Origin: Acidobacteriota bacterium
GTDB lineage: Bacteria > Acidobacteriota > UBA6911 > RPQK01 > JADFOI01
NCBI GenBank assembly: GCA_963663035.1
Contig: OY760074.1
Span: forward strand, 1,472,001 to 1,536,000
Length of the DNA stretch: 64,000 bases
Reading direction: 5' to 3'
Numbering within the stretch: position 1 is the stretch's first letter; each line of letters starts with the position of its first letter. Of this stretch, positions 3,480-58,928 are shown piece by piece. Below the pieces are notes generated by a model. It saw only the letters and a list, made by a program, of their open reading frames with translations. It ran no database searches and was not told where the DNA came from. A program made the position numbers and the translations under genes.

Positions 3480-3752
3480 GTGCCTCGTTTCACAAATACG
3501 GTAACGTTTGTGTCGAGCGCGACGGCGTCGAGTTCGCGAAGCGACGACGACGCGATGTCTGTGCGCATCGCGGAGGAGGAGGGACAAAGGAATCGATGCC
3601 GTCCCGCCGCCACCCTTTGGGCTAAAGGGGTTGCGGGCGATCTCTGTGTCCCTTTGTCGTCGCCGATGTCCCAGCATCGCCTCCTCCTCGCTCCTTAATC
3701 TCGCCTCGCAAGCCCTTTCAGCAAACGTCATCGTATTTGTGAAGCGAGGCAC
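3480..3752. mobile_element. Family A MITE-like palindromic element, copy A1 (273 bp), between rpsH and rplF
   Basis: 31-bp terminal inverted repeats (3480-3510 / 3722-3752, 3 mismatches); flanked by TTA direct repeat (3477-3479, 3753-3755 = rpsH stop); homologous to 32352-32624 and 58657-58928. Confidence 0.85.
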
Positions 3753-4151
3753 TTAGTACACTTCACACAAGATTTCGCCGCCAACACCCTTTTCTCTGGC
3801 CTTCTTGCCCGTCAAAACACCGCTGGAGGTGGAAAGAATATTGATTCCCAGACCTCCCAATACCAGTGGGATGTCATCCTTCCTGGTGTAGACCCGCCGA
3901 CCCGGCTTGCTGACTCGCTTGAGACACCGGATGATGGGCTCTTGAGAGGCCTGGTATTTCAGGTGGACGGTCAAAGTAGCAAAAGGCTGTGTATGATTCA
4001 CTGAATGTCCAAAGATATAGCCTTCTTCCTCCAGGATCTTGACAATCTCTACCTTGGTATTGGAAAAGGGGAGTTCCACGGTCTCAAACCTGGCCATCTG
4101 GGCATTGCGAATGCGAGTCAAGAGATCGGCAATAGGATCCGTCATTGACAT
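3753..4151 (-). CDS. rpsH: 30S ribosomal protein S8
   Basis: MTDPIADLLTRIRNA, RVSKPGRRVY, GVGGEILCEVY. Confidence 0.98.
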   Translation of the reverse strand: MSMTDPIADLLTRIRNAQMARFETVELPFSNTKVEIVKILEEEGYIFGHSVNHTQPFATLTVHLKYQASQEPIIRCLKRVSKPGRRVYTRKDDIPLVLGGLGINILSTSSGVLTGKKAREKGVGGEILCEVY

Positions 4152-4169
4152 TGTTCTAGCACTCCTTTA

Positions 4170-4355
4170 CTACCAACTGGCCTTGGTGACCCCGGGGATC
4201 TCGCCTTGCAGGGCCAGTTGTCGAAAACAGATTCTGCACAGTTCAAATTTCCGTAAGTAACCTCGAGATCTTCCGCATCGCTGGCATCGCGAGTAGCCGC
4301 GAGTTGAGAACTTGGGGCGCCTCTTTTGCTTGGCGATCAGTGATTTTTTGGCCAT
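4170..4355 (-). CDS. rpsN: 30S ribosomal protein S14, 61-aa Zn-binding (type Z)
   Basis: CQRCGR...[18 protein letters not shown]. Confidence 0.98.
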
Positions 4356-4364
4356 AAATTTCCT

Positions 4365-4931
4365 CTAGATCACAGCTGCCTGGGGTTCTTCAATCCGGGC
4401 AAAGGGCATTCCCATCTGAGCCAGCAGAAAGTGGGCCTCTTTATCCACCTTGGCACTCGTCACCAGCGTGATGTTCATTCCGTGTATCTGCTCGGTTTTT
4501 CCCATATCGAGTTCCGGGAAAATGAATTGATCCGTTATTCCCAGGGTGTAGTTGCCTCTCCCGTCAAAAGCACGAGCAGAAAGACCTCGGAAGTCACGGA
4601 CCCGAGGGAGGGCAATGCTGACCAGGCGATCAAGAAACTCATACATTCGCTCCCCTCGGATGGTCACCATGACCCCAATGGGCATCCCTTGACGGAGCTT
4701 AAACGTAGCAATGGCCTGTCGGGCCATCCGGATGATCGGCTTCTGGCCAGTGATGGCGGTCAGTTCTGCCGAAGCGGCATCCAGCAGCTTGGGCTCGCGA
4801 ATGGCGGCGCCCAGACCAACATTGATGACGACTTTCACCAGCCTGGGCACTTCCATGATGCTTTTGTAGTGAAACTCCTGCATCAAAGCAGGGACGATCT
4901 TTTCCTGGTATTTCTCCGCCAGTCGTGCCAT
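4365..4931 (-). CDS. rplE: 50S ribosomal protein L5
   Basis: [21 protein letters not shown]. Confidence 0.98.
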
Positions 4932-4949
4932 GGCTCTTTCTCTCTCTGC

Positions 4950-5270
4950 CTACTTGTCGATCGTGCCCTCGCACTTCTTACAGATTCGCACCTTCTGCCC
5001 ATCTGTCAGCAGCTTGTATCCGACTCTTGTCGGTTTGCTGCACTCCCGGCAAATCACCATCAGATTGGAAAGGCGCAGCGGGGATTCTCTCTCTACAACT
5101 CCCCCCTTAAGATTCTTTTGGGGATTGGGACGAGTATGCCTTTTAAGCATGTTAAGATTCTCAACCACAGCCCGCTCCCCACCCTTGGCAATGCGCAAGA
5201 CCTTTCCCCTCTTTCCACGGTCTTTCCCGGCCAGAACAACAACCTCATCATCTCTCTTGATATGTAACAT
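4950..5270 (-). CDS. rplX: 50S ribosomal protein L24
   Basis: KOW motif [15 protein letters not shown]. Confidence 0.98.
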
Positions 5271-5276
5271 ATTCGT

Positions 5277-5645
5277 TCACAGGACTTCGGGCGCCAGCGA
5301 CACGATTTTCAAGAAGCGCCGCTCGCGTAATTCCCGGGCTACCGGCCCAAAAACACGGGTTCCAATGGGCTCTTTTTGGGCGTCAATAAGGACTGCCGCG
5401 TTCTCGTCAAACTTGATGTAGGTCCCATCCCGGCGCCGAGCATTTCTGCGCATTCGCACGATGACGGCCTTGACCACCTCTCCCTTCTTGACTGCTCCAT
5501 CCGGACTGGCCTCTTTTACAGAAGCCGTGATCACATCTCCCAACCCGGCAACCCGTCCGGTGCCGCCACCCACTGGAAGAATGCAGGCCAACTTCCGAGC
5601 ACCTGAGTTGTCCGCTACCGCTAGCTTGGTCCGCATCTGGATCAT
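5277..5645 (-). CDS. rplN: 50S ribosomal protein L14
   Basis: [27 protein letters not shown]. Confidence 0.98.
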
Positions 5646-5649
5646 ATTG

Positions 5650-5910
5650 TCACCCTTTCGCCTTCTCGAGAATCTCCGCTACAACCCAGTGTTTCCGCTT
5701 ACTCAAGGGACGAGTTTCCTCAAGCTTGACCTTATCTCCCACCTGGCAGGCGTTCTCTTCATCATGAGCCATAAACTTTCGGGTGCGACGGATCGTCTTG
5801 CCATAAAAAGGATGGGCAAAGAGTCGGTCAACAGCCACCACCACGGACTTTTCCATTCCGTCCGAAACCACTCGCCCAACTTTGGTGCTCCTCGTCTTAG
5901 GGGAACTCAT
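5650..5910 (-). CDS. rpsQ: 30S ribosomal protein S17
   Basis: [22 protein letters not shown]. Confidence 0.98.
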
Positions 5911-6107
5911 CGAGTCAGCTCCTTTTCCTTTTCCGTCAATACTGTCTTGATTCGGGCCAGGTCCCTGCGAACCTGTCCTATCTTCATCACATTCTCCAGT
6001 TGCCCGGTCGCCTTCTGAAGCCGCAGGCGGAATAGCTGTTCTGAAGAGGCTGCCGCCTCAGTCTCCAGCTCTTCCTTGGACATTTCTCTTAATTTTTCAG
6101 CTTTCAT
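5907..6107 (-). CDS. rpmC: 50S ribosomal protein L29
   Basis: [25 protein letters not shown]. Confidence 0.97.
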
Positions 6108-6520
6108 TTTGAACCGTACCGGCCCACCACCCTGGTTTTCAGTGACAGCTTCTGTGAGGCCAACCTCAGCGCCTCACGGGCAACCTCTTCAGTCAAACCG
6201 TCCACCTCGTAAAGAATCCTGCCGGGTCGAATCACCGCCACCCATCCTTCCGGAGCTCCTTTTCCTTTTCCCATCCGAGTTTCTGCAGGCTTCTTGGTAA
6301 AGGGCTTATCCGGGAAAATGCGGATCCACACCTTGCCACCTCGCTTTGCATAGCGAGTAATGGCAATTCGCGCAGCCTCAATTTGCCGATTCGAGATTCT
6401 TCCCGGTTCCAGAGCTTTCAGACCATACTCACCAAAAGCGACGGTGTATCCGCCACTGGCCTTACCCTTTGTACGACCCTTCTGCTGCTTTCGATACTTC
6501 ACCTTCTTGGGCATTAACAT
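6104..6520 (-). CDS. rplP: 50S ribosomal protein L16
   Basis: [20 protein letters not shown]. Confidence 0.98.
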
Positions 6521-6522
6521 GA

Positions 6523-7173
6523 TTAGGCCCCACTGGGTTGGTCTTGTTGCTCATAGATATCACCTTTATAGACCCAAACCTTTACGCCGATCACCCCGTA
6601 GCTGGTAAAAGCTTCAGCAAATCCATAATCGATATCCGCTCTGATCGTATGTAAGGCTAACCGGCCTTGCAGATACCACTCCGCACGGGAGATTTCCGCT
6701 CCATTGAGTCTTCCTGCACAGCGCACTTTGATGCCTTTGGCACCAAACCTCACACTCGTATCCACGGCCCGGCGCATCGCTCTTCGAAAGGCCACTCGCT
6801 TCACCAGCTGCTGGGCAATCGATTCGGCAACCAGCTGGGCTTCCAGCTCCGGCTTACGCACTTCCTGAATATTGATATACACTTCTCTTCCGGTGGTCAC
6901 CTGGAGATCACTCTTGAGCTTGTCAATCTCACTTCCCTTGCGACCAATAATGATCCCGGGGCGAGAAGTATGCACGATGACTGTCAACTTGTTGGCCGCT
7001 CGTTCGATCTCAATACGGGAGATCCCGGCGTGGAAAAAACGATGTTTCAGTTGGGCCTTGATCTTCAGGTCCTCGTGCAACAATTTCCCATAGTTTTTAG
7101 TGGCGAACCACCTGGACTTCCAGGTCAGGTGATGGCCAAGCCGAAATCCGTAAGGATGGACTTTTTGACCCAC
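6523..7173 (-). CDS. rpsC: 30S ribosomal protein S3
   Basis: [21 protein letters not shown]; GTG start. Confidence 0.98.
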
Positions 7174-7175
7174 GT

Positions 7176-7532
7176 TTACTCCTTTTCATCCTCTCCATCC
7201 GAAACTCGGATGGTGATGTGCTTTTGATGTCTTCGCTCTCGAAAGGCACGTCCCTGTGGAGCAGGCCGCATTCGCCATTTCCACTTGGTAGAGCCCAAAT
7301 TCACAAACGCCTCCTTCACGAAGAGTTCTTCCAGACTGACAGCCGCAGACTTCACCTCTGCATTGGCAATGGCCGAACGCAGGACCTTTTCAATCGCCTT
7401 GGCTGCACCTTTCGGAGAAAACTGCAGAATACCCAAGGCCTGCTCGACCTTCTTCCCTCGAATGAGATCGATGACCAATCGTGCCTTCTGTGAAGAACCT
7501 TTCACGTATTTTGCCGTGGCCGTCGCTTCCAT
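7176..7532 (-). CDS. rplV: 50S ribosomal protein L22
   Basis: [28 protein letters not shown]. Confidence 0.97.
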
Positions 7533-7549
7533 GATTTCTCACGCCCTGG

Positions 7550-7837
7550 CTATCTCAACCGGGCAGCCTTCTCCCTTTTGCCGGTATGACCCCTAAAAGT
7601 TCTGGTCGGTGAAAACTCTCCCAGTTTATGCCCCACCATGTTTTCAGTAATAAAGATGGGGATAAACTTTCTTCCGTTGTGCACCGCAATGGTATGCCCG
7701 ACCATCTCCGGAATAATGGTCGACCTCCGGGACCAGCTTTTGATGACGATCCTCTCATTGGTTTCATTTAAGTGCTTGATCTTCTTGAGAAGATGATCGT
7801 CCAGAAACGGTCCCTTTTTTACTGATCTCGGCATCAA
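7550..7837 (-). CDS. rpsS: 30S ribosomal protein S19
   Basis: [23 protein letters not shown]. Confidence 0.98.
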
Positions 7838-7844
7838 AATTCCC

Positions 7845-7870
7845 CTGTCAGTTGTCAGCTGTCAGCTGTT
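7845..7870. repeat. Heptamer tandem repeat (YTGTCAG)x3.5
   Basis: ctgtcag ttgtcag ctgtcag ctgtt in the rplB-rpsS spacer. Confidence 0.8.
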
Positions 7871-7873
7871 CTC

Positions 7874-8701
7874 TTACCTCTTCTTGCGTCTACGCACAAT
7901 AAACTGTTCCGTTCTCTTGTTGTTGCGGGTCCTGAAGCCCTTGGTTTTCCAGCCCCATGGTGAGCAGGGATGGCGTCCTCCCGATGCCTTGCCCTCACCT
8001 CCACCCATAGGATGGTCTACCGGGTTCATGGCAACACCCCGCACCGAGGGCCGTCGTCCACGCCAGCGATTTGCTCCCGCTTTTCCGAGGGTCACATTCT
8101 CATAATCCAGGTTTCCAATCTGGCCCACGCTAGCCCGGCACAGAATGTGTACCCTCCGAACTTCCCCAGAAGGCAGCTTGATCTGGACGTAGTTTCCCTC
8201 TTTCGCCACCAGCTGTGCTGATGCTCCGGCACAGCGCGCTAACTGCCCGCCTCTTCCCCGAGTCAATTCGATGTTGTGAATGATCGTCCCCAGCGGGATA
8301 CTAATCATGGGCAAATTGTTTCCGGGCACAATGTCGGAGTCGGGTCCAGACATCACCTGATCGCCCGGACTCAAGCCCAGGGGAGCCAGGATGTACCGTT
8401 TCTCCCCATCCACGTAGTGCAATCGAGCGATTCGAGCGCTCCGGTTGGGATCGTACTCGATGGCAACGATGGTGGCCGGGATTCCATCTTTATCCCGCTT
8501 GTAATCAATGAGTCGATACTTGCGTTTGTGACCTCCCCCGCGACGCCTGACCGCAATACTTCCATGGTCATTCCGACCACTGATTCTCTTTTTTCCACGA
8601 GTCAAACTCTTGAGGGGCTTGATATCAGTCAGGCCCTCCTGGTTTTGAACGGTCCGAAAGCGAGACCCCGGAGATGTGGGCTTGAAGCGCTTAATACCCA
8701 T
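7874..8701 (-). CDS. rplB: 50S ribosomal protein L2
   Basis: [25 protein letters not shown]. Confidence 0.99.
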
Positions 8702-8706
8702 AGATC

Positions 8707-10310: not shown

Positions 10311-10313
10311 GGC

Positions 10314-10640: not shown

Positions 10641-10718
10641 GGGTCTTCAGGATCCTAGGATTTACAATCCCCTTCTATAGATTCTGGATTCTCTCTCCTG
10701 CCTCCTGACTCCTACCTC

Positions 10719-23762: not shown

Positions 23763-23839
23763 GGGGACGTAGCTCAGTCCGGAAGAGCGCCTGACTCGCA
23801 CTTAGGAGGTCGAGGGTTCGAATCCCTTCGTCTCCACCA
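23763..23839 (+). tRNA. tRNA-Ala(CGC)
   Basis: Acceptor GGGGACG/CGTCTCC with G3:U70; anticodon arm CCTGA-CTCGCAC-TTAGG; GGTTCGAATCC; encoded CCA. Confidence 0.97.
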
Positions 23840-23850
23840 CCCTTGCTTGG

Positions 23851-25145
23851 TGCATTCCGGACACATAGGTTACAGTTTATTCCGAAGACATAGGTAACAC
23901 CTTTGCACCAAAAGGGTTATTTATAGGTTCAAACCTTCTACTGTCTTCGTCAAAGTAACCGAGGTCGTATTCCATAAACGACACCAGCCAAATTTTCTCT
24001 TTGACCTCTTTGATTCCAACATCTTGACCAGCAAACACCGTGCTGAAGTTGATCTTTTGACTTTTCATACAGATTCTGCCGCAGCTGGTGACGGTCACGG
24101 TGCGATCGTGCATGGGGTACTCGACGCGCCCGATTCCTCGGTAGGGACAAGATGCGGGAGTATAGACCTCGGACGGAAACTTCATGCCCAGGGCCTCATG
24201 AGGTCTCTCAGTATTGTATTCCGCCTGAAAGGCATTAAACCTCTCTTGCTGCTGAAGAAGGTTGTGGGCAGCGGGAACGACTGTGGCCTTCTTGAGGGTG
24301 AGATGAAGGCGCTCATGCCTTCCGTTCTGCTCGGGATGGCCGGGCTTGATCCTCTCGATTCGGATTCCTAGCCTAAGCCACCAGACGGCCAGTCGACTGA
24401 GTCCAAACAATCCGTTGGGTGATGCAAAAGGGACTCCGTTGTCCGTGCGGATCGCTTCCGGCAAACCTAACTCTTGAAAGGTTCTCTCGAATACGGGGAA
24501 AGCACCTCTTTCCTTAACACTGTCGAGAGCCTCGATGGCGAGCAGATAACGGCTGGCGTGATCGCTCACGGTGAGAGGATAACAGTACCGTTTGTCTCCC
24601 AGCATGAACTCTCCTTTGAAGTCGGCAGACCAAAGGTCATTGGGATTCTGGCTGCTGGACAATCGAGTCCCCTCTGCCTTGAACCGTCGCCGTTTTCTAC
24701 AGTTCACCAGGCCGTTGCGATCCAGAACCGCGTGAACTGTGCTCACCGCAGGCGGCCGTACATTCGGAAACCTACGAATCAGGAGCGCCCGAATCTTGGG
24801 AGCTCCCCAATACGGCTTCTCTCGCTTTAGCCTGACCAGGGTCCGTTCCACCTGTTCGGGCAGTTGGTTTCCGTAACGATGCGGCTTGCGGCTCCGATCC
24901 ACCAGGGCGTAAGCGCCGGTGTTTTGATAGCGGTTCCAAATCTTGTAGCCCGTCTTTCTGGATATCCCAAACTCCTCACACAGACGGCTCATGGACTCCC
25001 CATCCAACAGCTTCGCTATAAATCTCATTCTCTCGTCCATCACACAGATCTCCTTCCATGGCATCTCTGGGCACCTCCCAGAAGAAGCCTATAAGTGTTA
25101 CCCATGTGTCCGGTATAATTTGTTACCCATCTTTCGGAATGGGCA
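23851..25145 (-). mobile_element. IS481-family insertion sequence
   Basis: Imperfect inverted ends, each with two tandem ~25-bp motifs (TTCCG-A-A-AT-GGT-ACA); CTTGG direct repeat at 23846-23850 and 25146-25150; exact left end uncertain by ~2 nt. Confidence 0.88.
23877..25064 (-). CDS. IS481-family DDE transposase
   Basis: MPWKE start, HTH (FGISRKTGYK), rve core WSADFKG, IRTDNG, PEQNGRHER. Confidence 0.95.
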   Translation of the reverse strand: MPWKEICVMDERMRFIAKLLDGESMSRLCEEFGISRKTGYKIWNRYQNTGAYALVDRSRKPHRYGNQLPEQVERTLVRLKREKPYWGAPKIRALLIRRFPNVRPPAVSTVHAVLDRNGLVNCRKRRRFKAEGTRLSSSQNPNDLWSADFKGEFMLGDKRYCYPLTVSDHASRYLLAIEALDSVKERGAFPVFERTFQELGLPEAIRTDNGVPFASPNGLFGLSRLAVWWLRLGIRIERIKPGHPEQNGRHERLHLTLKKATVVPAAHNLLQQQERFNAFQAEYNTERPHEALGMKFPSEVYTPASCPYRGIGRVEYPMHDRTVTVTSCGRICMKSQKINFSTVFAGQDVGIKEVKEKIWLVSFMEYDLGYFDEDSRRFEPINNPFGAKVLPMSSE

Positions 25146-25263
25146 CTTGGTGCCACGGATCTGATAGCATTAGGTCGGAGTCCAATTTCGACAGGTGGTT
25201 TGCCGGTGGCTGTCCGGTTGCCGGTCGCCTCCAGAAGCCGAACCCTTCAGCTAGGAGAAGAAT

Positions 25264-31638: not shown

Positions 31639-32352
31639 ATGAAAAATATAATGAAAAAGAAATTCCTCGTGTTGCTTGGCTGCACGCTCCTGGTTGCCCT
31701 TGTGGCTATCCCCAACGCTCTCGGGAATCCCAATCCACGGGTGACGGTCCTCTTTGGAGGCTCATTTTTAAATGGGGAGCGAGCCTTTGATATCAGTGGT
31801 GATTCCTTTACCTCCAAATTCCTGAAGGGAGGCAAAACGCGCCTGCGGGGCAGTTTGGACCTCACTGAGCATTGGACTTTGGAAGGAGACTACAGCTTTG
31901 GTCATAATGACCAACGCATCACGGACCTGTCGGGAGTCACACCCGTCGAGACCGATTTCGGGGTCTCTGTGGGCCAGTTTCACTTCAACATGATACGCTT
32001 TTTAACCTCCTCGGAGAGCCGGATAAGGCCGCTCTTCAGTGTTAGCCTTGGAGCAACTCGCTTCAACCCCACGGATGAAGCCAAGGAGGCAGCTCTCAAT
32101 GACAATTTTCTGCGCGACCCGACCCAACTGGAGTCCTCGGTCCAGCTCAGTGTCGCTGTAGGAGGAGGGTTTGAGGCGCGCCTCAGTCGCTGGTTGGGAC
32201 TCCGCTTCGACGTCAAGGATTACATCAGTCCGATTCCGCGCTTTGGCCTGAGCGAAACATCTTCCGGTCAGGGAGGCGTCTTTTTCCCCATCAGTGGCGT
32301 GGTGCACAACATCGAGACTGAAGGGGGAATCATCTTCTATTTCTTGCCCTAG
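31639..32352 (+). CDS. Outer membrane beta-barrel protein
   Basis: Signal peptide, amphipathic strands (GGGFEARLSRWLGLRFDVKDY), aromatic C-terminus. Confidence 0.75.
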   Translation: MKNIMKKKFLVLLGCTLLVALVAIPNALGNPNPRVTVLFGGSFLNGERAFDISGDSFTSKFLKGGKTRLRGSLDLTEHWTLEGDYSFGHNDQRITDLSGVTPVETDFGVSVGQFHFNMIRFLTSSESRIRPLFSVSLGATRFNPTDEAKEAALNDNFLRDPTQLESSVQLSVAVGGGFEARLSRWLGLRFDVKDYISPIPRFGLSETSSGQGGVFFPISGVVHNIETEGGIIFYFLP

Positions 32353-32624
32353 TGTCTCGTCCCATGAATACCGTGACGTTTGTGGCGAGCGCGACGGCGT
32401 CGAGTTCGCGAAGCGACGACGACGCGATGCCAATGTGTATCGCGGAGGAGGAGCGACAAAGAAATTGATGCCGTCCCGCCGCCACCCTTCGGGCTGAAGG
32501 GGGTTGCGGGCGGTCTCTGCGTCGCTCGTCGTCGTCGATGTCCCTGCATCACCTCCTCCTCGCTCCTTGATCTCCCCTCGCAAGACCCTTCAGCAAACAT
32601 CTGGGTATACATGGGACGAGACAC
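32352..32624. mobile_element. Family A element, copy A2 (273 bp)
   Basis: Ends GTGTCTCGTCCCATG / CATGGGACGAGACAC, TA on both sides; left end overlaps the upstream TAG stop; core homologous to A1. Confidence 0.85.
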
Positions 32625-32811
32625 TACCCTCTGGTGATAGCAATCACAGTTTTCCTCCAGTTTGATGGGTACACTCTTGCCCAGTTATGGCTGTTTCTTC
32701 AGGGTCTGTCGGTTGGCGTTTTCGACAACCTTCAGGCCCCCTTCCCTTTCTAGAATTTCAGCAAAGCCTGGCCAGGCATGGAAAGCCTCGCCCCGCCCAA
32801 GGACATCTATC

Positions 32812-51307: not shown

Positions 51308-51323
51308 TCGCGAGTTGAAACCA

Positions 51324-54300
51324 ATGATCGAGAAAATCATTCAGTACAGCGCCAGAAACCGGTTCCTGGTCTTTCTGGTCATGACCTTCGCCACAGCCTG
51401 GGGGGTATGGGCCCTCTCCAACATCACGCTGGACGCGATTCCGGATCTCTCTGATGTGCAGGTCATTGTCTTTACAGAATGGCCGGGGCGCAGCCCTGAT
51501 CTGGTGGAAGACCAAATCACCTATCCGATCGTGGCAGCCATGCTGGCCGCACCCAACGTCCAGCTCGTCCGCGGCATCTCCAACTTTGGTTTTTCCTACG
51601 TCTACATCATCTTTGAAGATGGCACCGACATGTATTGGGCCAGAAGCCGGGTCTTGGAATACCTGCAAAAGATCAACGGGCAATTACCCGAAGGAACCAC
51701 CGCCATACTGGGCCCCGATGCTACCGGAGTGGGATGGGTATTTGAATACGCACTGGTTGACGAAACCGGGCGCTACAACCTGGCTCAACTTCGCTCCTTT
51801 CAGGATTGGTATCTGCGTTACTGGTTGGAGTCTGTGCCTGGTGTCGCTGAAGTGGCCAGTGTGGGAGGCTTCGTCAAGCAATATCAGGTAGAACTCGATC
51901 CCAACAAGCTTCTGGCTTACAACATCCCGCTTGAGAAAGTCATCGACGCCATCCGCGACAGTAACAACGATGTAGGTGGCCGGGTGCTCGAGATCGCCGG
52001 CACCGAGTATATGGTGCGGGGACGTGGGTATATCCAGTCGCTCCAGGATATCGAGTCAGTGCCTGTAGTAACCGATGGAAAAGGCACCACGATTCACGTC
52101 CGAGATCTGGGGCGGGTCCAATTCGGACCGGATATGCGCCGGGGCATTGCAGAATTGGATGGTAAAGGGGAGGTGGTGGGCGCCATTGTGATCATGCGCT
52201 ATGCGGAAAACGCCCTGACCGTCATCGATCGAGTTAAAACTAGGTTGAAGGAAGTGGAAGGCTCCCTGCCCGAGGGCGTCAAACTGGTCGTGACCTACGA
52301 TCGTTCCGAGCTGATCTTGAGAGCCGTTGAAACGTTACAGGAAAAGCTGACCGAGGAAATGATTGTCGTCAGTGTCGTCATTATGGTCTTTTTGCTTCAT
52401 TTGCGCAGTGCCTTCATTCCAATTCTGGCTTTACCCCTGGCCATCATCATGGCCTTTATCCCCATGTATTACATGAAGGTCACCGCCAATATCATGTCTC
52501 TGGGAGGAATCGCTATCGCCATCGGGGCCATGGTAGATGCTTCCATTGTTCTGATCGAGAACGCCCACAAAAAGCTGGACGAATGGAAATCTCAGGGAAG
52601 ATCTGGGAACAGAGTCGAGGTTCTCATCCAGTCATTTTGCGAAGTGGGACCTTCCATCTTTGTCTCCTTGCTCGTGATCACGGTTTCCTTTCTCCCGGTG
52701 TTCACTCTGCAAGCCCAGGAAGGCCGACTTTTCAAACCGCTGGCCTATACCAAAACTTTCTCCATGTTCTTTGCGGCTCTGCTGGCCATCACCCTGGTGC
52801 CCGCTCTGGGAGCCCTGCTCATACGGGGTAAGATCCGCCCTGAGGAAAAGCATCCGATCAGCCGCATCCTCCAGGCGATTTATACCCCCATACTGACTTT
52901 CATTCTGCGCTTTCCCAAGAGCTTCATGTTTGTAAGCTTCCTGCTGGTACTGTCCACGGTCCCGGCGTTCAGGCAGCTTGGATCGGAGTTTATGCCTCCT
53001 TTAAATGAAGGGTCCTTGCTTTTTATGCCCACTGCGGTCCCCGGAATGCCGGTCACGGAGGCCGCCAGAATCCTTCAGACACAGGATAAACTTCTGAGCC
53101 AATTCCCCGAAGTGGAGAGGGTGTTTGGAAAGATCGGAAGAGCCGATACATCCACCGATCCAGCTCCTTTGAGCATGGTTGAAACCGTGGTGCTGTTGAA
53201 GCCTCAGGAAGACTGGGAACGGGTGCACGAGGAACGCTGGTACTCCAGCTGGATGCCAGACGGGGTCCAACCCATCTTCAGAAGCATTTGGCCTGAGGAG
53301 CGCCCCAAGTCGTGGGAGGAACTGGTTCAGGAGATGGATGCCCAATTGAAATTTCCTGGGATGGCCAACATTTGGTGGATGCCTGTTCAAACTCGGACCG
53401 AGATGCTCTCCACCGGCATGCGCAGTAATCTTGGAGTCAAGGTCTTCGGCCCCGACCTGGAGAAAATCGAGGAGATCGCGGTTCAGATCGAGAAGGTCCT
53501 CCAGGACGTACCCGGTACGCGCAGTGCTTTCGCAGACCGGGTGATGGGAGGCTACTATTTTGATTTCATAATCAACCGGGAAGAAGCAGCCCGTTATGGA
53601 CTGACCGTCGGAGCTGTGGAGGACATCATAGAGACGGCTATCGGGGGCAAGAACATTGGCTATACCATCGAAGGCAGAGAGCGCTACCCCATCAGCGTTC
53701 GCTATCCACGGGAGCTTCGCGACGATATCGATGGGTTGGGAAGAGTACTGATTCCCACCCCCTCCGGTGCCCAGATCCCCATTTCACTGCTGGCTGACAT
53801 GGAATACACGCAGGGACCACCCATGATTCGGAACGAAGATGGCCAGTTGGTGGGATACGTGTTCATCGATGTCACCCACGAGGACTACGAGGGCTACGTC
53901 GAGCAAGCTCAACAGATCGTTGCAACCCAGGTTGAAGTACCGGCTGGTTATCGTCTCGAGTGGGCGGGACAGTACAAGTATCTGGTGCGTATGAAGCAGC
54001 GGCTGGCTTATGTTATTCCCATCACACTTTTTATCATCTTCGTCCTGCTCTACCTGAACTTTGGGTCCTGGAAGGAACCCCTTATCGTGTTCCTGGCGGT
54101 TCCCTTTTCGCTTATTGGATCGTTCTGGTTCCTGTCCTTCTTGAACTACAATCTCAGCATCGCGGTGTGGGTGGGGATCATTGCTTTGGCAGGCCTTGAG
54201 GCCGAGATGGGAGTGGTATTACTGCTGTACCTGCAGCTGGCTTACCAGAAGTGGCAGAGAGAGGGCAGGATGCGTCATGTGGCTGATCTCAAGGAGGCCA

Positions 54301-55082
54301 TTCACTACGGTGCGGTCCAGCGACTGCGCCCCAAGCTCATGACCGTGTTGACAACAGTTGTGGGTCTGCTTCCCATCATGTGGGCATCGACCTACGAAAC
54401 CGGGGCCGACGTGATGAAACGCATGGCCGCTCCCATGGTGGGAGGATTGACCACCTCCTTCATTTTAGGACTCACCATTTATCCGGCCGTCTTCTTCGTC
54501 TGGAAGCGCTACGAGATGGAAGGACTGGCCGCTACCCTGCGCGACTTGATCCCCTTCAGCAATCGGCTGCCCCACTCCGCTGATGAGATCGACGGCATAC
54601 CAGCCAGACAGTCACGTGTTCGTCTGCTCTGGATCTTTTTAGCCGTCCTGCTGATTTTCCTACTGCTCTGGGGTCTTTGGGGCTGGAGACAAAGCCTGAT
54701 TGTGGCAGGACCCTTACAACCGGTTGCCCTGCAAGAAGTGGACGGCATCCATATCGAAGTTTCCGCCCCAGAAGAAAGGTTCCCTGTCGGCCAGAGTCGC
54801 TTTCACCTGACCTTCCGAAACCCCGGCGGCGACCCAGTTGAAATTGAGAACGTTGACGTCCAATTTTATATGCCGGCTATGGCCACCATGCCTGCCATGT
54901 TGATCGGAACCGAAATCACTCCGATCGCTCCCAACGCGATAGAGGGAAACCTGGACCTCACTATGTCCGGGGAATGGCAGATGAGGATCACCTTTGACAC
55001 CCCGGCAGGGAGCGCTACTTCCGCAGGGAGCGCCACTCCTGCAAGGAGCCGAAACGCCCGAATTAGCATCAGCACACAGTGA
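51324..55082 (+). CDS. cusA: CusA-type Cu/Ag RND permease with C-terminal YtkA/FixH-like domain
   Basis: DAIPDLSDVQV, GPDATGVGW, GSEFMPPLNEG, RLRPKLMT; extra TM and soluble tail (FYMPAMATMPAM, MSGEWQM). Confidence 0.92.
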   Translation: MIEKIIQYSARNRFLVFLVMTFATAWGVWALSNITLDAIPDLSDVQVIVFTEWPGRSPDLVEDQITYPIVAAMLAAPNVQLVRGISNFGFSYVYIIFEDGTDMYWARSRVLEYLQKINGQLPEGTTAILGPDATGVGWVFEYALVDETGRYNLAQLRSFQDWYLRYWLESVPGVAEVASVGGFVKQYQVELDPNKLLAYNIPLEKVIDAIRDSNNDVGGRVLEIAGTEYMVRGRGYIQSLQDIESVPVVTDGKGTTIHVRDLGRVQFGPDMRRGIAELDGKGEVVGAIVIMRYAENALTVIDRVKTRLKEVEGSLPEGVKLVVTYDRSELILRAVETLQEKLTEEMIVVSVVIMVFLLHLRSAFIPILALPLAIIMAFIPMYYMKVTANIMSLGGIAIAIGAMVDASIVLIENAHKKLDEWKSQGRSGNRVEVLIQSFCEVGPSIFVSLLVITVSFLPVFTLQAQEGRLFKPLAYTKTFSMFFAALLAITLVPALGALLIRGKIRPEEKHPISRILQAIYTPILTFILRFPKSFMFVSFLLVLSTVPAFRQLGSEFMPPLNEGSLLFMPTAVPGMPVTEAARILQTQDKLLSQFPEVERVFGKIGRADTSTDPAPLSMVETVVLLKPQEDWERVHEERWYSSWMPDGVQPIFRSIWPEERPKSWEELVQEMDAQLKFPGMANIWWMPVQTRTEMLSTGMRSNLGVKVFGPDLEKIEEIAVQIEKVLQDVPGTRSAFADRVMGGYYFDFIINREEAARYGLTVGAVEDIIETAIGGKNIGYTIEGRERYPISVRYPRELRDDIDGLGRVLIPTPSGAQIPISLLADMEYTQGPPMIRNEDGQLVGYVFIDVTHEDYEGYVEQAQQIVATQVEVPAGYRLEWAGQYKYLVRMKQRLAYVIPITLFIIFVLLYLNFGSWKEPLIVFLAVPFSLIGSFWFLSFLNYNLSIAVWVGIIALAGLEAEMGVVLLLYLQLAYQKWQREGRMRHVADLKEAIHYGAVQRLRPKLMTVLTTVVGLLPIMWASTYETGADVMKRMAAPMVGGLTTSFILGLTIYPAVFFVWKRYEMEGLAATLRDLIPFSNRLPHSADEIDGIPARQSRVRLLWIFLAVLLIFLLLWGLWGWRQSLIVAGPLQPVALQEVDGIHIEVSAPEERFPVGQSRFHLTFRNPGGDPVEIENVDVQFYMPAMATMPAMLIGTEITPIAPNAIEGNLDLTMSGEWQMRITFDTPAGSATSAGSATPARSRNARISISTQ

Positions 55083-55092
55083 GGTTTGTATT

Positions 55093-56409
55093 ATGAACGG
55101 AACAACATGTCGGAAAGCCCATTTAGTGGTCTTCATTCTGATGGGGAGCTTCCTCTGGACCTCTCTGGCTCTGGGCGCTCAAGATTTACCTCCTGCAGCA
55201 CAGCCCGAACAATCGTTCGAAGTGCTCAACCGCCTGGTCGAAGAAGCTCTACGTTCCAGCCCTTCCATCCAGGCAACTCGAAAAGAGTGGGAAGTCTCTA
55301 CCAAGAGGCCCTCGCAGGTCGCCTCACTTCCCAACCCGGAACTCAGTTTTGGTTCGATGAGTTCGGGAAATATCTTGCCTTACTCTACAATTGGCAACGG
55401 TCCGCTCTCCTGGGCTTCCTTCATGTTCAAGCAGAAGATTCCCTGGCCCGGTAAGTTGAATCTCAAGGGGGATATCGCGGAAACCGAGGCGGCTCAAAAG
55501 GCGCACCTCTACCAGGCGGCGACTTTCCAGGTCATTGGTCAATTGAAGACGGCCTACTTTGAGTTGACCTACGTCGATCAGGCGACAAGGATCCTGAGTC
55601 GATATCAAGATCTTTTGCAAAGGCTTTCCCGGATCGCCGAAGCCAGGTACAGCGTGGGAAAGGGTCTTCAGGCTGATGTGCTCAGGTCCCAGGTAGAGAT
55701 CTCACTCATCATAGAACGCCTTGAGTTGTTGGGTCAGCAACGGGAAAGTGCTCAAGCTCAAATCAACAGCCTTCTCAATCGATCTCCGGACGTTGTTCTC
55801 CCCCAGCTGGAACCGGTAGAGGACACTTCCGTGGAGTTGCCCTTTTCTTTGGAGAGTCTCTATCTCACAGCGAGAGAACAGAATCCTGAAATTGCGGCGG
55901 AAAGATTAGGGATTCAGAAAGCTTCCCTGCAGCTCGATCTGTCCAAGAAACAGTCTTTCCCCGATTTGAACGTTTCGACGACCTATATGCTGCGCGGAGG
56001 TCCCTTTGACAATATGTATGAATATCGCTTGGGTCTGGAGATACCCCTCTATTTCTGGAGAAAGGAACGCTTTGGGGTAGAGGAGAATGTAGAAGAGATC
56101 GAGAGATCAAGGCATAGTTACCAGAGTAAGCTTCAGCAGGTCACCTTCAAGATTAAGGATGCTTATATCGGAGTTCGCACAGCACAGAGCCTGATACGGC
56201 TGTATCGACAGGGAATCATTCCTCAAGCCACTGCATCCCTGGACTCGGCACTATCAGCCTATGAGGTGGGCAGCATCGACTTTCTCAACTTGATCGACAA
56301 CGCGCTCACCGTACTGAACTATGAGCTTCGATACCACGAAGAAACCGGTGATTATTTTCAGAACCTGGTCCGACTGGAGGAGCTGTTGGGCTTTGTTTTT
56401 GTGAAGTGA
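55093..56409 (+). CDS. TolC/CusC-family outer membrane efflux protein
   Basis: QKIPWPGKL, ARYSVGKG, SAYEVGSIDF. Confidence 0.9.
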   Translation: MNGTTCRKAHLVVFILMGSFLWTSLALGAQDLPPAAQPEQSFEVLNRLVEEALRSSPSIQATRKEWEVSTKRPSQVASLPNPELSFGSMSSGNILPYSTIGNGPLSWASFMFKQKIPWPGKLNLKGDIAETEAAQKAHLYQAATFQVIGQLKTAYFELTYVDQATRILSRYQDLLQRLSRIAEARYSVGKGLQADVLRSQVEISLIIERLELLGQQRESAQAQINSLLNRSPDVVLPQLEPVEDTSVELPFSLESLYLTAREQNPEIAAERLGIQKASLQLDLSKKQSFPDLNVSTTYMLRGGPFDNMYEYRLGLEIPLYFWRKERFGVEENVEEIERSRHSYQSKLQQVTFKIKDAYIGVRTAQSLIRLYRQGIIPQATASLDSALSAYEVGSIDFLNLIDNALTVLNYELRYHEETGDYFQNLVRLEELLGFVFVK

Positions 56410-56436
56410 AGAGCAACTGACCTGGAGAATAAGCGC

Positions 56437-57153
56437 ATGAAAATCTTCCTTTTTCTCGTTTTGGCTATCCCTCTATCCTTTTGCTGGCCTGTGACGGCCA
56501 GCGCCGATACTGTTTTCCAGTTTTCCGTTCAGCACGACCACTTCTGGGGAAAAGGCTCTGGGGACCTAACGATTGACCAGGAGGGCATCACCTATACCTC
56601 AGAAAAGGACGACGATCACAGTATTGACTGGTCTTATTCCGACATCCAGGAACTGAAGATCGAGTCGCCACAGAAAGTCTACGTCCGCACTTATAGAGAT
56701 GTCTGGTGGAAGCTGAATCGCGATCGGACACTTGAATTTGAGTTAGTCGAAGGAGAGATGAGCGCCGAAGTCGTGGACTTTTTGCGTGAAAAGCTTCCCA
56801 ATGCTCTCGTGTCCGCCGTTTTCACGTTTCCAGATGATGCAGCGTACCGGGTTCCGGTCAAGCATACGCATGCCCTCGGACAAGGATGTGAGGGCCAACT
56901 GCTATTCAGCGAGAGGGGCATATACTACAGTGCCTCCAGGTCCGACCACAGTCGTTTCTGGCCCATGGAAGACATTGAGAGCCTGGGTCGCATGTCCGGA
57001 TCCCATATCCGTATTGCTGCGCGGGAGCACTCTCACTCGGGCAGTGTCAGGAACTTCCAGTTCCAGCTCAAGCAACCGATGGATGGCGAGACCTACCAAC
57101 GCCTGTGGCGAAAGATTTACGAACCAGAATCCTGGCTGGATAAACTGGAGTGA
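56437..57153 (+). CDS. Secreted hypothetical protein with two tandem His-motif beta domains
   Basis: Signal peptide ASA-D; VQHDH..G...G.L...DHS repeated as VKHTH...G...G.L...DHS. Confidence 0.7.
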   Translation: MKIFLFLVLAIPLSFCWPVTASADTVFQFSVQHDHFWGKGSGDLTIDQEGITYTSEKDDDHSIDWSYSDIQELKIESPQKVYVRTYRDVWWKLNRDRTLEFELVEGEMSAEVVDFLREKLPNALVSAVFTFPDDAAYRVPVKHTHALGQGCEGQLLFSERGIYYSASRSDHSRFWPMEDIESLGRMSGSHIRIAAREHSHSGSVRNFQFQLKQPMDGETYQRLWRKIYEPESWLDKLE

Positions 57154-57165
57154 GTTGGAGTTGGT

Positions 57166-58530
57166 TTATCGGGGGCACTCTTCGGGCACAGTCGTTCTGT
57201 CGAAACGGACGTCAGAGACAGAGACTAGCTGGGTGACATGGCGCTGGGGAGAGGGAAGCGAGAGCGTCAGGGGGCGATGTAAATTACCCCCCGGGAGTTG
57301 CCCAACCCAACCCGGCATTCTTTCTACCAGCGCTTGACTGGGAGTGTGGCAGCGGGGGTTTACTTCCGCCGTAGAAGAGGCCCACTCCACGGGAGAGTTC
57401 ACAGAAACATGCTTCAAGGCTTTCTGGGTGTACCGAGCGCGAGTATTCCACAGCATCCAGCCTTTCCCGCCCCCATCCAACACGCCCTTTAGCTGATCCC
57501 GCATTTCCTGGGGGGAAAACTTCCGCCGGTCAAAGGCATAATCGCGAAAGTCCTGAATCCACGGACGCACAACCGTACCTGTACCCTGCAGACGTTCAAC
57601 AGCTCGCTTGGTACTTTCATTCACCAGTTCATAAATATGGTCCATCGCTACCGGATAGCCGGGGATCCCCAGGTGAAAGGATGAAGGATAAAGCATGGGT
57701 GAGAGAACATCGACATACGGTGCAATGTCCTCGATATTCTGACCGATTCCAGTGTCGGCCGCTCCCCAAACCGTGTACCCAAAGACATCCACGGCAATCT
57801 TGACCCCGAATGGTGACAAAGCCTTTCGTGCGCGCCTCAAGAATCCCGTTATCGCCGCACGCCGCTCCTTCTCTGTACTCCGTCGTGAAAAAAGAGCCGC
57901 CCCTATTTCACCATCTGACGGAAAACGAATGTAGTCAAACTGAATCTCGTCAAAGCCCTTTTTCGCCGCCTCTATGGCAATGGCAATATTGTAGTCCCAG
58001 ACCTTTTCATTAAAGGGATCGGTCCAAGCGAGTCCCTCCCAGTCCCGCCAGGGATGACCAGTGCGCTTGTCGATCACCGCAAGTTCAGGATAGGTGGCAG
58101 CAAGGGGATCGTCTTTAAAGACAACAATTCGGGCGATAGTGTAAACGCACCGATCCTTGAACCACTTCATGAACTGTGGCCAATCTTTGACCCTGATCTG
58201 TTCCTGGGCCCCCACCTCAATCGCCAGCGGAATGGTGCTTCGATAGGGAATCAAGCCCCGATCCCCCTTAACATCCATAATGACGGTATTCACTTCCGTC
58301 TGTTCGACCAATCGCTTGATACGGCCCAGCAACCCATGGTGGCCCAAGGTGTAAAATGTGGCATAAACGCCCTTCAGCGGTGGAGGTTCTGGAAGTTCCA
58401 ACTCATCCGTAGTCTGCACCGGGTGTGTCAGTTCGGTTGCAGCTTCCTGCGCTTCCGCCACCGTCGGATTGGTTAGAAATAAGAGAAGGCTTGTTGTGAC
58501 GAGAATCAATCTTGAAGGAATGCTTACCAT
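57166..58530 (-). CDS. Putative glycoside hydrolase (DUF4015-like TIM barrel)
   Basis: IARIVVFKD, GFDEIQFDYIRFP, SPMLYPS, RPWIQDF. Confidence 0.85.
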   Translation of the reverse strand: MVSIPSRLILVTTSLLLFLTNPTVAEAQEAATELTHPVQTTDELELPEPPPLKGVYATFYTLGHHGLLGRIKRLVEQTEVNTVIMDVKGDRGLIPYRSTIPLAIEVGAQEQIRVKDWPQFMKWFKDRCVYTIARIVVFKDDPLAATYPELAVIDKRTGHPWRDWEGLAWTDPFNEKVWDYNIAIAIEAAKKGFDEIQFDYIRFPSDGEIGAALFSRRSTEKERRAAITGFLRRARKALSPFGVKIAVDVFGYTVWGAADTGIGQNIEDIAPYVDVLSPMLYPSSFHLGIPGYPVAMDHIYELVNESTKRAVERLQGTGTVVRPWIQDFRDYAFDRRKFSPQEMRDQLKGVLDGGGKGWMLWNTRARYTQKALKHVSVNSPVEWASSTAEVNPRCHTPSQALVERMPGWVGQLPGGNLHRPLTLSLPSPQRHVTQLVSVSDVRFDRTTVPEECPR

Positions 58531-58656
58531 AGGTCTTAACTATGGAACATTCGCTTCACCTAAGTCAGTAATCAGAGTCACCACATCTACATCGCCGGAG
58601 TGTTGGCTTCAGACGTGAATCAAAATGAAGGGAATCCAGAGAAGGGGTCGTCCTGG

Positions 58657-58928
58657 GTACTCCCTTTCATAAATACGGTAACGTTTGCGGATGGGGCTTG
58701 CGAGGCGAGGTCGCGAAGGGAGGAGGAGGCGATGTCAGGGACATCGTCGACGACGAGAGACAAAGAGATCGCCCGCAACCCCCTTGCGCCCGAGGGGTTG
58801 GAGCGGGACGGGCCCATTTCTTTGTTGCTTCTCCTCGCCGATGTCACTGACATCGACTCGTCGTCGCGCCTCGATCTGGGCTCCGTCGCGCTCCCAACAA
58901 ACGTCACCGTATTTATGAAAGTGAGTAC
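58657..58928. mobile_element. Family A element, copy A3 (272 bp, opposite orientation)
   Basis: 31-bp TIR GTACTCMCTTTCATAAATACGGTRACGTTTG; core homologous to the reverse complement of A1/A2; 9 bp from the glutaminase stop. Confidence 0.85.

What the first reader, a model, noticed from the sequence alone, without database searches (positions are those of the whole stretch)
3480..58928. Family A: three ~273-bp transposase-less elements with copy-specific but self-complementary terminal stems
Seen: copies at 3480-3752, 32352-32624 and 58657-58928 (273, 273, 272 bp). The outer arms differ between copies (GTGCCTCGTTTCACA, GTGTCTCGTCCCATG, GTACTCCCTTTCATA), yet each pairs with its own other end. 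Inner stems also covary: GAGGGAC/GTCCCTT in A1 vs GAGCGAC/GTCGCTC in A2, and apical CCCTTTG-GGC-TAAAGGG vs CCCTTCG-GGC-TGAAGGG. All lie at or within 9 bp of a stop codon. Known: classical MITE ends are conserved in sequence because a DDE transposase reads them. Inference: conserved length and pairing with drifting end sequence point to selection on a single-stranded fold, either a mobile structured RNA/ssDNA element or a 3'-UTR module. No cognate enzyme is visible in the window.
Basis: partly seen in the sequence, partly recalled or inferred. Interest (0 to 1): 0.82.

Follow-up and report, generated by a model that had tools for sequence, protein, structure and literature searches.

The report
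Structured miniature transposon family in Acidobacteriota
The three repeats are copies of a roughly 270-base non-coding mobile element found across the phylum Acidobacteriota, and it is unusual because its interior, not its ends, is conserved and keeps a branched fold through matched mutations.

Summary
The three copies are real. They belong to a family with about 38 full-length copies in this 3.6-Mb genome. The family occurs in 26 of 41 related genomes and in 59 of 401 genomes sampled across the phylum. The scan met it before on other DNA (e1-4498628).

The end sequences are shared by subfamilies of 5-14 copies; they are not specific to single copies. The elements are mobile DNA. Sister genomes have empty sites. 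Copies carry a real 2-3-base target duplication (TA or TWA) inside C-T(W)A-G. That target explains why they sit on stop codons.

The fold is a 30-bp terminal stem closing a three-way junction with two ~105-nt hairpin arms. It is kept by compensatory changes: 90-92% of cells pair, and the covariation score is 0.21-0.43 against 0.03-0.09 when partners are slid.

Resident copies decay neutrally, show no bias in orientation to genes, and show no G·U excess. Selection therefore acts on propagation, not on a host RNA function.

No autonomous partner was found. IS630-type transposases are the best candidate driver, but this is unproven.

The parts
3480..3752 (+). Copy A1, 273 bp, GTGCCTCG tip type
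   Evidence: It is absent from the orthologous site in four sister genomes.
3477..3479 (.). Left copy of the A1 target duplication (TTA)
3753..3755 (.). Right copy of the A1 target duplication (TTA). It is also the TAA stop of ORF 3753-4151 on the minus strand.
3480..3509 (+). A1 terminal stem P1, 5' arm (the left terminal inverted repeat)
   Evidence: Alignment columns 1-30 pair with columns 256-285. 91-95% of cells pair, and 23-28 of 30 pairs show changes on both sides.
3510..3613 (+). A1 left hairpin domain. Its closing helix is alignment columns 31-56 with 114-138. It contains the small hairpin hp1 and purine-rich internal loops (GACGACGAC and GGAGGAGGAG).
   Evidence: 15 of 23 and 17 of 23 pairs show changes on both sides.
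3614..3620 (+). A1 central CC-TTY-GG mini-hairpin at the junction
3621..3722 (+). A1 right hairpin domain. Its closing helix is alignment columns 146-166 with 233-255. It contains hp2 and pyrimidine-rich internal loops (GTCGTCGTCG and CCTCCTCCTC).
   Evidence: 11 of 20 and 15 of 20 pairs show changes on both sides.
3723..3752 (+). A1 terminal stem P1, 3' arm (the right terminal inverted repeat)
32352..32624 (+). Copy A2, 273 bp, GTGTCTCG tip type. The sub-parts are P1 at 32352-32381 and 32595-32624, the left domain at 32382-32485, the centre at 32486-32492 and the right domain at 32493-32594.
   Evidence: Sister genomes carry no copy at this site, and one has an independent insertion nearby.
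32350..32351 (.). TA flank of A2. Together with the element's first G it forms the TAG stop of ORF 31639-32352(+).
32625..32626 (.). TA flank of A2 on the right side
58657..58928 (-). Copy A3, 272 bp, GTACTCAC tip type, inverted relative to A1 and A2. Its flanks, TCA and CCA in element orientation, are a decayed duplication.

Best explanation
Family A is an old family of roughly 270-bp non-autonomous DNA transposons (MITEs) spread across the phylum Acidobacteriota.

Shown:
- It inserts into the palindromic word C-T(W)A-G and duplicates the central TA or TWA. A stop codon hit by an insertion is therefore regenerated, and insertions on stop codons survive.
- The 30-bp terminal stem is the pair of terminal inverted repeats. 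Its sequence and the duplication length (2 or 3 bp) differ by subfamily.
- Inside the terminal stem, two roughly 105-nt hairpin arms form a three-way junction. The arm stems are kept by compensatory change between lineages, while the internal-loop sequences stay constant.
- Resident copies in this genome decay neutrally.

Inferred:
- Each lineage follows its own DDE transposase acting in trans. IS630/Tc1-mariner-type enzymes are the best candidate.
- The fold is needed for propagation, not by the host. The most likely route is that the arms extrude on both DNA strands, as a cruciform or as transient single strands, and bring the two ends and the flanking target together for the transposase.
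- The copies in this genome, which has no IS630-type gene, are relics.
For: Family and spread:
- BLAST of the three copies against the genome gives 53 places, 38 of them about 250-274 bp.
- The family is present in 26 of 41 related genomes, and in 59 of 401 genomes and 38 of 227 genera sampled across the phylum.

Mobility:
- A1 is missing at the orthologous site in 4 of 4 sister genomes that retain the locus.
- A copy in genome G002 is missing at the orthologous site in this genome.

Target duplication:
- 15 of 58 copies have an exact 3-bp repeat (7 TTA, 7 TAA, 1 GTA), against a shuffle mean of 8.2. Only 14 of 5000 shuffles reach 15.
- A further 7 of 58 copies have TA/TA.
- The middle base W agrees in 14 cases and disagrees in 0.
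- The flank consensus is C-T-W-A|G...C|T-W-A-G.
- Duplication length tracks subfamily.

Fold:
- On 57 sequences, 92.4% of cells pair, 52 of 106 pairs show changes on both sides, and the covariation score is 0.212. Slid controls give 0.033-0.065, and 0 of 500 shuffles reach the observed value.
- On 27 phylum-wide sequences, 90.4% of cells pair, 68 of 106 pairs show changes on both sides, and the score is 0.430 against 0.054-0.093.

Level at which selection acts:
- Copy-private substitutions occur at 3.28% in paired columns and 3.36% in unpaired columns (p = 0.82). Of 184 scorable private changes in stems, 100 break the pair.
- G·T mismatches number 167 and A·C mismatches 157. This fits folding of both strands.

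IS630-type link:
- All 6 IS630-like lineages examined in this order sit in CTAG with a TA duplication and start GT(G/A)C, as family A does.
- In genome G029, where copies reach 99.3% identity, 3 of 3 inspected junctions show an IS630-like element joined to a family A end through one shared TA.
Against: - No autonomous element with family A ends was found. The searches covered this genome, 30 IS1380-like loci and 30 IS630-like loci. The IS630-like ends share only the GT(G/A)C tip and a loose A/T-rich box.
- IS630-type elements duplicate TA. Most family A copies duplicate three bases (TWA). By recall this is typical of IS5/Harbinger-type enzymes.
- The IS427/IS1031-type domain was found in only 3 of 41 genomes, and only 1 hit passed the family cut-off. 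The Harbinger-type domain was found in only 2 of 41.
- No DDE_3 gene is in this genome or in five of its six genus mates, and the sixth has only a weak hit. Yet the A1 insertion is younger than the split from a sister species whose flanking DNA is about 90% identical.
- Nothing tested here shows that a DDE transposase needs the internal fold. That step is inference.
- Thermodynamics alone does not single out the junction fold. It is more stable than the rival central hairpin in 35 of 57 sequences as RNA and in 28 of 57 as DNA.
Confidence: 0.55

Rival explanations
1. The conserved interior is a host-useful RNA module carried by a MITE shell. It would be a 3'-UTR or intercistronic structure, such as a processing site, a stabiliser or a terminator.
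For: - About 20 of 38 copies abut a stop codon within 10 bp, and 26 of 38 lie between co-directional ORFs (crude ORF-based gene calls).
- Contigs 90-95% identical to the element occur in two metatranscriptome libraries.
- The stems covary and the loops are conserved, which is the usual signature of a structured RNA.
- Passages of a review (PMC10969869, read as passages) report RNase III cleavage of transcripts carrying Correia elements and RNase E effects of ERIC elements.
Against: - Private substitutions are no rarer in stems than in loops: 3.28% against 3.36%.
- Orientation to flanking genes is 10 sense to 16 antisense.
- There is no overall G·U excess: 167 against 157.
- The position on stop codons is explained by the TWA/CTAG target.
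- The RNA-library contigs cannot show transcription, strand or RNA ends.
- Rfam has no match. The best weak hit has E = 0.84.
Confidence: 0.15
2. The element moves as folded single-stranded DNA through a structure-reading enzyme that recognises shape rather than end sequence. Candidates are an HUH/Y1 transposase of the IS200/IS605 or RAYT kind, or a tyrosine recombinase acting as integron integrases do on attC sites.
For: - The terminal stem sequence is free to drift, while pairing, length and internal loops are conserved across the phylum.
- Two Y1_Tnp genes exist in the genome.
- No DDE partner was found.
Against: - There is a true target duplication, with the middle base concordant in 14 cases and discordant in 0. 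By recall, HUH and tyrosine-recombinase mechanisms make no duplication.
- The terminal inverted repeats are perfect, unlike the asymmetric subterminal hairpins of those families.
- Element orientation does not follow the replichores defined by GC skew: 8 plus to 4 minus in one, 12 plus to 12 minus in the other.
- No link between the Y1 genes and family A was tested.
Confidence: 0.12
3. The matched changes are not selected. They result from concerted evolution of inverted repeats, for example through mismatch repair or template switching within extruded hairpins.
For: - The element is built entirely of nested inverted repeats.
- There is no strand asymmetry.
- Copies decay neutrally.
Against: - Within resident copies, 100 of 184 scorable private stem changes leave the pair broken and uncorrected. 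Homogenisation in place is therefore weak.
- The rival central inverted repeats are not kept when they vary.
- Length and loop sequences are conserved across the phylum.
Confidence: 0.1
4. The element is an RNA-mediated retroelement, a small structured RNA that is copied back into DNA.
For: The boundaries coincide with the base of a long closing stem, and the fold looks RNA-like.
Against: - No reverse transcriptase domain is in this 96.6%-complete single-contig genome.
- The duplication is a fixed 2-3 bp at a palindromic target.
- There is no strand bias.
Confidence: 0.03

Closest known systems
IS630/Tc1-mariner-derived MITEs. Examples are MITEEc1, listed as IS630-related in passages of PMC11602168, and plant Stowaway elements (recalled).
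   Same: - Small, non-coding and multi-copy, with terminal inverted repeats.
- Insertion at TA within CTAG.
- Strong hairpin potential.
- The IS630-like elements of this order share the CTAG/TA target and the GT(G/A)C tip.
   Different: - Most copies duplicate TWA (3 bp), not TA.
- The interior is more conserved than the ends.
- The fold is a covarying three-way junction, not a simple foldback.
- No parent IS with the same ends was found.
Correia elements (CREE/NEMIS) of Neisseria
   Same: - A transposon-like repeat without a known transposase.
- By recall, flanked by a TA duplication.
- Often co-transcribed with neighbouring genes.
- Forms a stem of its inverted repeats. Passages of PMC10969869 describe RNase III cleavage at the repeats.
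   Different: - Correia elements are shorter (the review gives 204 bp for the first one described) and limited to one genus.
- Their inverted repeats are conserved in sequence, and they carry promoters and an IHF site.
- Family A spans a phylum, has variable ends and has a conserved branched interior.
- No promoter or IHF site was tested here.
REPINs and their RAYT transposases
   Same: Hairpin-forming repeats whose stem sequence differs between lineages, located between genes.
   Different: - REPINs are pairs of 20-40-bp REPs (abstract of PMC3733652, seen in the listings).
- By recall they have no target duplication and depend on a single-copy Y1 gene.
- Family A has a true duplication and is about 270 bp long.
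Integron attC sites and the T-shaped parvoviral terminal repeats. These are analogies of logic only, and both are recalled.
   Same: Structure is conserved while stem sequence drifts. The parvoviral repeat has the same topology: one stem closing two small arms.
   Different: There is no sequence or mechanistic relation. Those sites are read by tyrosine recombinases or by Rep, and they make no TA/TWA duplication.

Membership tests
MITE (miniature inverted-repeat transposable element) | Small size, with no coding capacity | tested here: met
   Lengths are 264-276 bp and are not restricted to multiples of three. The best frame is free of stop codons in only 30 of 57 copies.
MITE (miniature inverted-repeat transposable element) | Terminal inverted repeats | tested here: met
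   The terminal 30 bp pair in 91-95% of cells.
MITE (miniature inverted-repeat transposable element) | Target site duplication | tested here: met
   15 of 58 copies have an exact 3-bp repeat (14 of 5000 shuffles reach this), 7 of 58 have TA/TA, and the middle base agrees 14 to 0.
MITE (miniature inverted-repeat transposable element) | Many copies, with presence/absence polymorphism | tested here: met
   53 places in the genome, and empty sites in sister genomes.
MITE (miniature inverted-repeat transposable element) | A cognate autonomous IS with the same ends | tested here: not met
   None was found in this genome, nor among 30 IS1380-like loci or 30 IS630-like loci from 40 relatives.
IS630/Tc1-mariner-mobilised element | TA duplication at a CTAG-type target | tested here: inconclusive
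   Some subfamilies show TA within CTAG: the GTGTCTCG type here and the GTACTCCCTGCC type in G029. Most others duplicate TWA.
IS630/Tc1-mariner-mobilised element | Ends matching a resident IS630-family element | tested here: not met
   Only the GT(G/A)C tip and a loose A/T-rich box are shared. BLAST of whole elements against 30 IS630-like loci found only true MITE copies.
IS630/Tc1-mariner-mobilised element | Presence of a DDE_3 transposase in genomes that carry copies | tested here: not met
   There is none in this genome or in five of its six genus mates, and the sixth has only a weak hit, although all carry at least 18 matches. The gene is present in many other carrier genomes. MAG incompleteness applies.
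IS1380-derived MITE (as earlier notes propose for other repeats of this genome) | Ends matching IS1380-family ends, with a 4-bp CTAG duplication | tested here: not met
   The resident IS ends are CTAG|CCGCAATTATTCATAAG and CTAG|CCCGGATTATTCATAAAT. They share only a 9-nt TTCATAAAT box, offset by one base. The outer C and G of the target are present in only 53% and 50% of copies, so they are not duplicated.
IS5 (IS427/IS1031) or Harbinger-type element (TWA duplication, recalled) | Presence of a DDE_Tnp_1_2 or DDE_Tnp_4 transposase | tested here: not met
   PF13586 was found in 3 of 41 genomes, with only 1 hit over the cut-off. PF13359 was found in 2 of 41. Neither is in this genome.
IS200/IS605-RAYT (HUH) dependent repeat | No target duplication, asymmetric ends, and orientation tied to replication | tested here: not met
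   The duplication is real, the inverted ends are symmetric, and orientation does not follow the GC-skew replichores.
Known structured RNA family (Rfam 15) | A match to a curated covariance model | tested here: not met
   There is no hit on the copies at gathering score. The best weak hit is CcsR1 with E = 0.84.

The most novel reading that the evidence does not exclude
Family A may not derive from any insertion sequence. It may be a mobile element that is read by its shape. Its enzyme would recognise the conserved internal loops and the three-way junction of a folded strand or an extruded cruciform. The terminal stem would then only need to pair, which leaves it free to drift. The logic resembles integron attC sites or parvoviral T-shaped ends, here combined with a staggered cut at C-T(W)A-G. 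On this reading the element has persisted across a whole phylum.
Probability: 0.2. Interest if true: 0.85.

Novelty: new variant of a known kind. Interest (0 to 1): 0.6.

Why it matters
In textbook MITEs the ends are conserved because a transposase reads them, and the middle is filler. Here the reverse holds across a phylum. The ends are replaced completely between lineages, while the length, two hairpin arms and the loop sequences persist through compensatory change.

If the fold is needed for movement, this family offers a tractable case for how DNA secondary structure takes part in cut-and-paste transposition. It would also mark an unknown or unusually flexible transposase.

On the practical side, the family explains many insertions that sit exactly on stop codons, and many contig breaks, in Acidobacteriota genomes assembled from metagenomes.

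Tried and rejected
Searches for a longer copy carrying a gene
- Pairing all end matches in this genome gave only about 270-bp and about 160-bp elements, a few solo 21-25-nt ends next to ordinary genes, and one copy split by an IS3-like element.
- The same pairing in G029 gave elements of 46-292 bp and some unpaired ends. It gave no pair 1-2 kb apart. Ends with more than 2 mismatches were not listed.
- Three half-length matches in relatives all lie at contig ends.

Candidate partner elements
- The ends of the IS1380-like, IS481-like, IS3-like and 325-aa DDE_Tnp_1 elements of this genome do not match.

Fold details
- Pairing between the internal loops of the two arms (GACGACGAC with GTCGTCGTCG, and GGAGGAGGAG with CCTCCTCCTC) has no covariation. 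It breaks in the phylum-wide set, where 80% and 83% of cells pair.
- The long central hairpin breaks when it varies.

Coding
- No frame is kept open.

Orientation
- In co-directional contexts the copies are 10 sense and 16 antisense to flanking ORFs.
- An apparent switch of element orientation near 2.15 Mb does not coincide with the GC-skew turning points at 1.22 and 3.20 Mb. The breakpoint was chosen after seeing the data.

RNA evidence
- Four RNA libraries held as contigs were laid on A1. They hold family sequences and the neighbouring gene, but no contig bridges the two. They show no ends and no strand. I draw no conclusion from them.

Naming
- The named records that hold the core are all uncultured MAGs. 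One is labelled Candidatus Binatia. This gave no finer taxonomy.

Literature
- Two full-text searches found no description of this family. The terms were 'miniature inverted-repeat transposable' with 'Acidobacteria', and Acidobacteria / repetitive / palindromic / MITE.
- The supplementary MITE lists of PMC11602168 were not opened and may contain it.

Full report
**1. The observation**

The three stretches exist as described: 273, 273 and 272 bp, with the quoted ends. The third copy is inverted relative to the first two. A1 folds far better than shuffled sequence, with z = -8.6.

BLAST of the three copies against the whole 3.59-Mb single-contig genome gives 53 places. Of these, 38 are about 250-274 bp long. 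The rest are derivatives of about 160 bp or fragments.

The ends are not specific to single copies. Among 37 aligned copies of this genome, four tip types are shared by 14, 13, 5 and 5 copies. I left the copy at genome position 1223112 out of this alignment because it carries an internal deletion.

**2. It is mobile DNA with a real target duplication**

- A1 is absent from the orthologous site in the 4 of 5 sister genomes that retain the locus.
- The closest sister genome reads ...CATAA|TTAGTACAC... at that site. This genome has TTA-[element]-TTA there, and the right TTA is the stop codon of the neighbouring gene.
- A copy in G002 is absent from the orthologous site of this genome.
- One sister genome has an independent insertion behind a terminator hairpin near the A2 site.

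Over 58 copies (38 from this genome and 20 from relatives), the flank consensus is C-T-W-A|G...C|T-W-A-G. Fifteen copies have an exact 3-bp repeat (7 TTA, 7 TAA, 1 GTA) against a shuffle mean of 8.2. Only 14 of 5000 shuffles reach 15. Seven more copies have TA/TA. TTA never faces TAA.

The outer C and G are present in only 53% and 50% of copies. They are therefore a target preference and are not duplicated.

Duplication length follows subfamily. The GTGTCTCG type here and the GTACTCCCTGCC type in G029 sit as C-TA|...|TA-G. The other types duplicate TWA.

The target TWA or CTAG contains stop codons on either strand. That explains why about 20 of 38 copies abut a stop within 10 bp (crude ORF calls).

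**3. The fold**

RNAalifold on 57 copies did not return one long hairpin. It returned a terminal stem closing two long hairpin domains. I extended this by hand to 106 pairs and counted them.

| Measure | 57 copies, this order | 27 sequences across the phylum |
|---|---|---|
| Cells that pair | 92.4% | 90.4% |
| Pairs with changes on both sides | 52 of 106 | 68 of 106 |
| Covariation score | 0.212 | 0.430 |
| Score with partners slid | 0.033-0.065 | 0.054-0.093 |
| Shuffles reaching the observed value | 0 of 500 | 0 of 500 |
| Terminal stem, pairs changed on both sides | 23 of 30 | 28 of 30 |
| Left-arm helix | 15 of 23 | 17 of 23 |
| Right-arm helix | 11 of 20 | 15 of 20 |

The 57-copy set was drawn from 16 genomes. 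I dropped partial copies, copies with uncertain ends, duplicates and the unpublished G017 locus.

The 27-sequence set comprised 12 representatives of the first set plus 15 distant copies. I dropped two further G106 copies and three loci whose ends I could not find.

In distant lineages the terminal stem sequence is wholly different. GTGTGCTGTCTCCAACATAGC and GGAGTGTGTCCGAGTAATGGG replace GTGCCTCGTTTCATAAATACGG. It still pairs in 95% of cells, and the element stays 260-278 bp long.

Three of their pairs are unpaired in 23-26 of 57 sequences.

Pairing between the conserved internal loops of the two arms has no covariation and breaks in the phylum-wide set.

Energy alone does not decide between the two folds. 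The junction fold is the more stable in 35 of 57 sequences as RNA and in 28 of 57 as DNA.

**4. Where selection acts**

- Substitutions private to one or two copies of a subfamily are as frequent in paired columns (210 of 6410, 3.28%) as in unpaired columns (122 of 3628, 3.36%; p = 0.82).
- Of 184 scorable private stem changes, 100 break the pair. Resident copies therefore decay without regard to the fold, while lineages keep it.
- G·T (167) and A·C (157) mismatches are equal overall.
- Orientation to flanking ORFs is 10 sense to 16 antisense.
- No reading frame is kept open.
- Rfam has no match.

Together these results argue against a strand-specific host RNA. They favour a requirement during propagation that either strand can meet.

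**5. The driver**

This genome holds:
- about 30 copies of an IS1380-like element;
- about 47 copies of an IS3-like element;
- about 10 copies of an IS481-like element;
- 4 copies of a 325-aa DDE_Tnp_1 element;
- 2 Y1_Tnp genes.

It holds no DDE_3, DDE_Tnp_1_2 or DDE_Tnp_4 gene and no reverse transcriptase. None of the resident elements has family A ends.

Among 40 relatives, 30 IS1380-like and 30 IS630-like loci gave no match to the family's ends. IS427/IS1031-type and Harbinger-type domains are nearly absent.

All 6 IS630-like lineages whose ends I could define sit in CTAG with a TA duplication and begin GT(G/A)C, as family A does.

In G029, some copies are 99.3% identical. There, 3 of 3 inspected junctions show an IS630-like element joined to a family A end through one shared TA. 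This shows at least a shared target, because the element's last C, the TA and the next G recreate CTAG. I regard IS630-type enzymes as the best candidate and as unproven.

**6. Distribution and prior notes**

The family is found in 26 of 41 relatives, and in 59 of 401 genomes and 38 of 227 genera sampled across the phylum. These counts include the unpublished G017.

All named records holding the core are uncultured MAGs.

I agree with that. I do not reproduce its co-orientation with genes.

Earlier notes on IS1380-type MITEs in this genome led me to test IS1380 ends. For family A they do not fit.

Two literature searches found no description. I read passages of two papers for background. I did not open the supplements of PMC11602168.

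**7. Verdict**

This is a real, widespread family of MITE type with an unusual architecture: variable ends and a conserved, covarying branched interior. The mechanism that needs the fold and the enzyme that moves the element remain open.

Noticed in passing
window about 23804-25147 (genome 1495804-1497147), and 8 further genome copies: A 1.34-kb IS481-like element (395-aa transposase with rve and LZ_Tnp_IS481 domains) sits about 10-15 bases downstream of a tRNA gene. This holds in 7 of the 8 copies whose left junction was printed. The window copy lies directly behind the tRNA at 23763-23836. This looks like strict targeting of tRNA 3' flanks.
   Followed up: partly
genome 480086-480577, 497852-498343, 501667-502158, 642531-643128, 1592316-1592806, 3030363-3030854, 3277040-3277530 and others: Family A copies sit exactly at the centre of a second MITE of about 125 bp (ends GCGGGTGTCCAGGAAGG...CCTTCCTGAACACCCGC). 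The flanks outside that shell differ, so the composite has spread as a unit. One shell carries a different family A subtype at the same central site, which suggests a preference for palindrome centres.
   Followed up: partly
genome 2250214-2250375, 3171642-3171803, 3227755-3227911, 3261187-3261349, 3538901-3539064; also 162-bp forms in G029: Short forms of family A, about 160 bp, keep the terminal stem and the outer halves of both arms. They lack the centre, as if deleted between the two similar small hairpins (CGATG...CATCG). G029 also has a 46-bp form made of two ends only.
   Followed up: no
genome 540830, 773211, 2568809, 3193015, 3271516: Solo 21-25-nt matches to family A tips lie next to ordinary genes, with no second end within 3 kb. 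Their origin is unexplained. Possibilities are deletion remnants, one-ended events or another element with the same tips.
   Followed up: partly
genome 3446405-3447947: One family A copy is split by a 1267-bp IS3-like element (ends TGACCTTGCCCCC). That element has about 47 copies in the genome, which also holds about 30 copies of a 1647-bp IS1380-like element flanked by CTAG. The genome is very rich in insertion sequences.
   Followed up: partly
genome 662883-663387: Four hits of the GTAG-tagged motif CTACGCCTGCGGTCGAAGGG are spaced exactly 168 bases apart, which indicates a tandem array of the shell repeat.
   Followed up: no
whole genome: Family A copies are mostly in plus orientation between 0.42 and 2.12 Mb (17 of 23) and mostly in minus orientation between 2.17 and 3.49 Mb (11 of 15). 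The switch does not coincide with the GC-skew turning points at 1.22 and 3.20 Mb. The breakpoint was chosen after seeing the data, so this may be chance or a past rearrangement.
   Followed up: partly
G002 locus L047 around 1988/1989, compared with window 3468-3479: The sister genome that lacks A1 also lacks 9 bases of the 11-base spacer that this genome and three other sister genomes keep at that site. This may be an unrelated deletion or the footprint of an imprecise excision.
   Followed up: no
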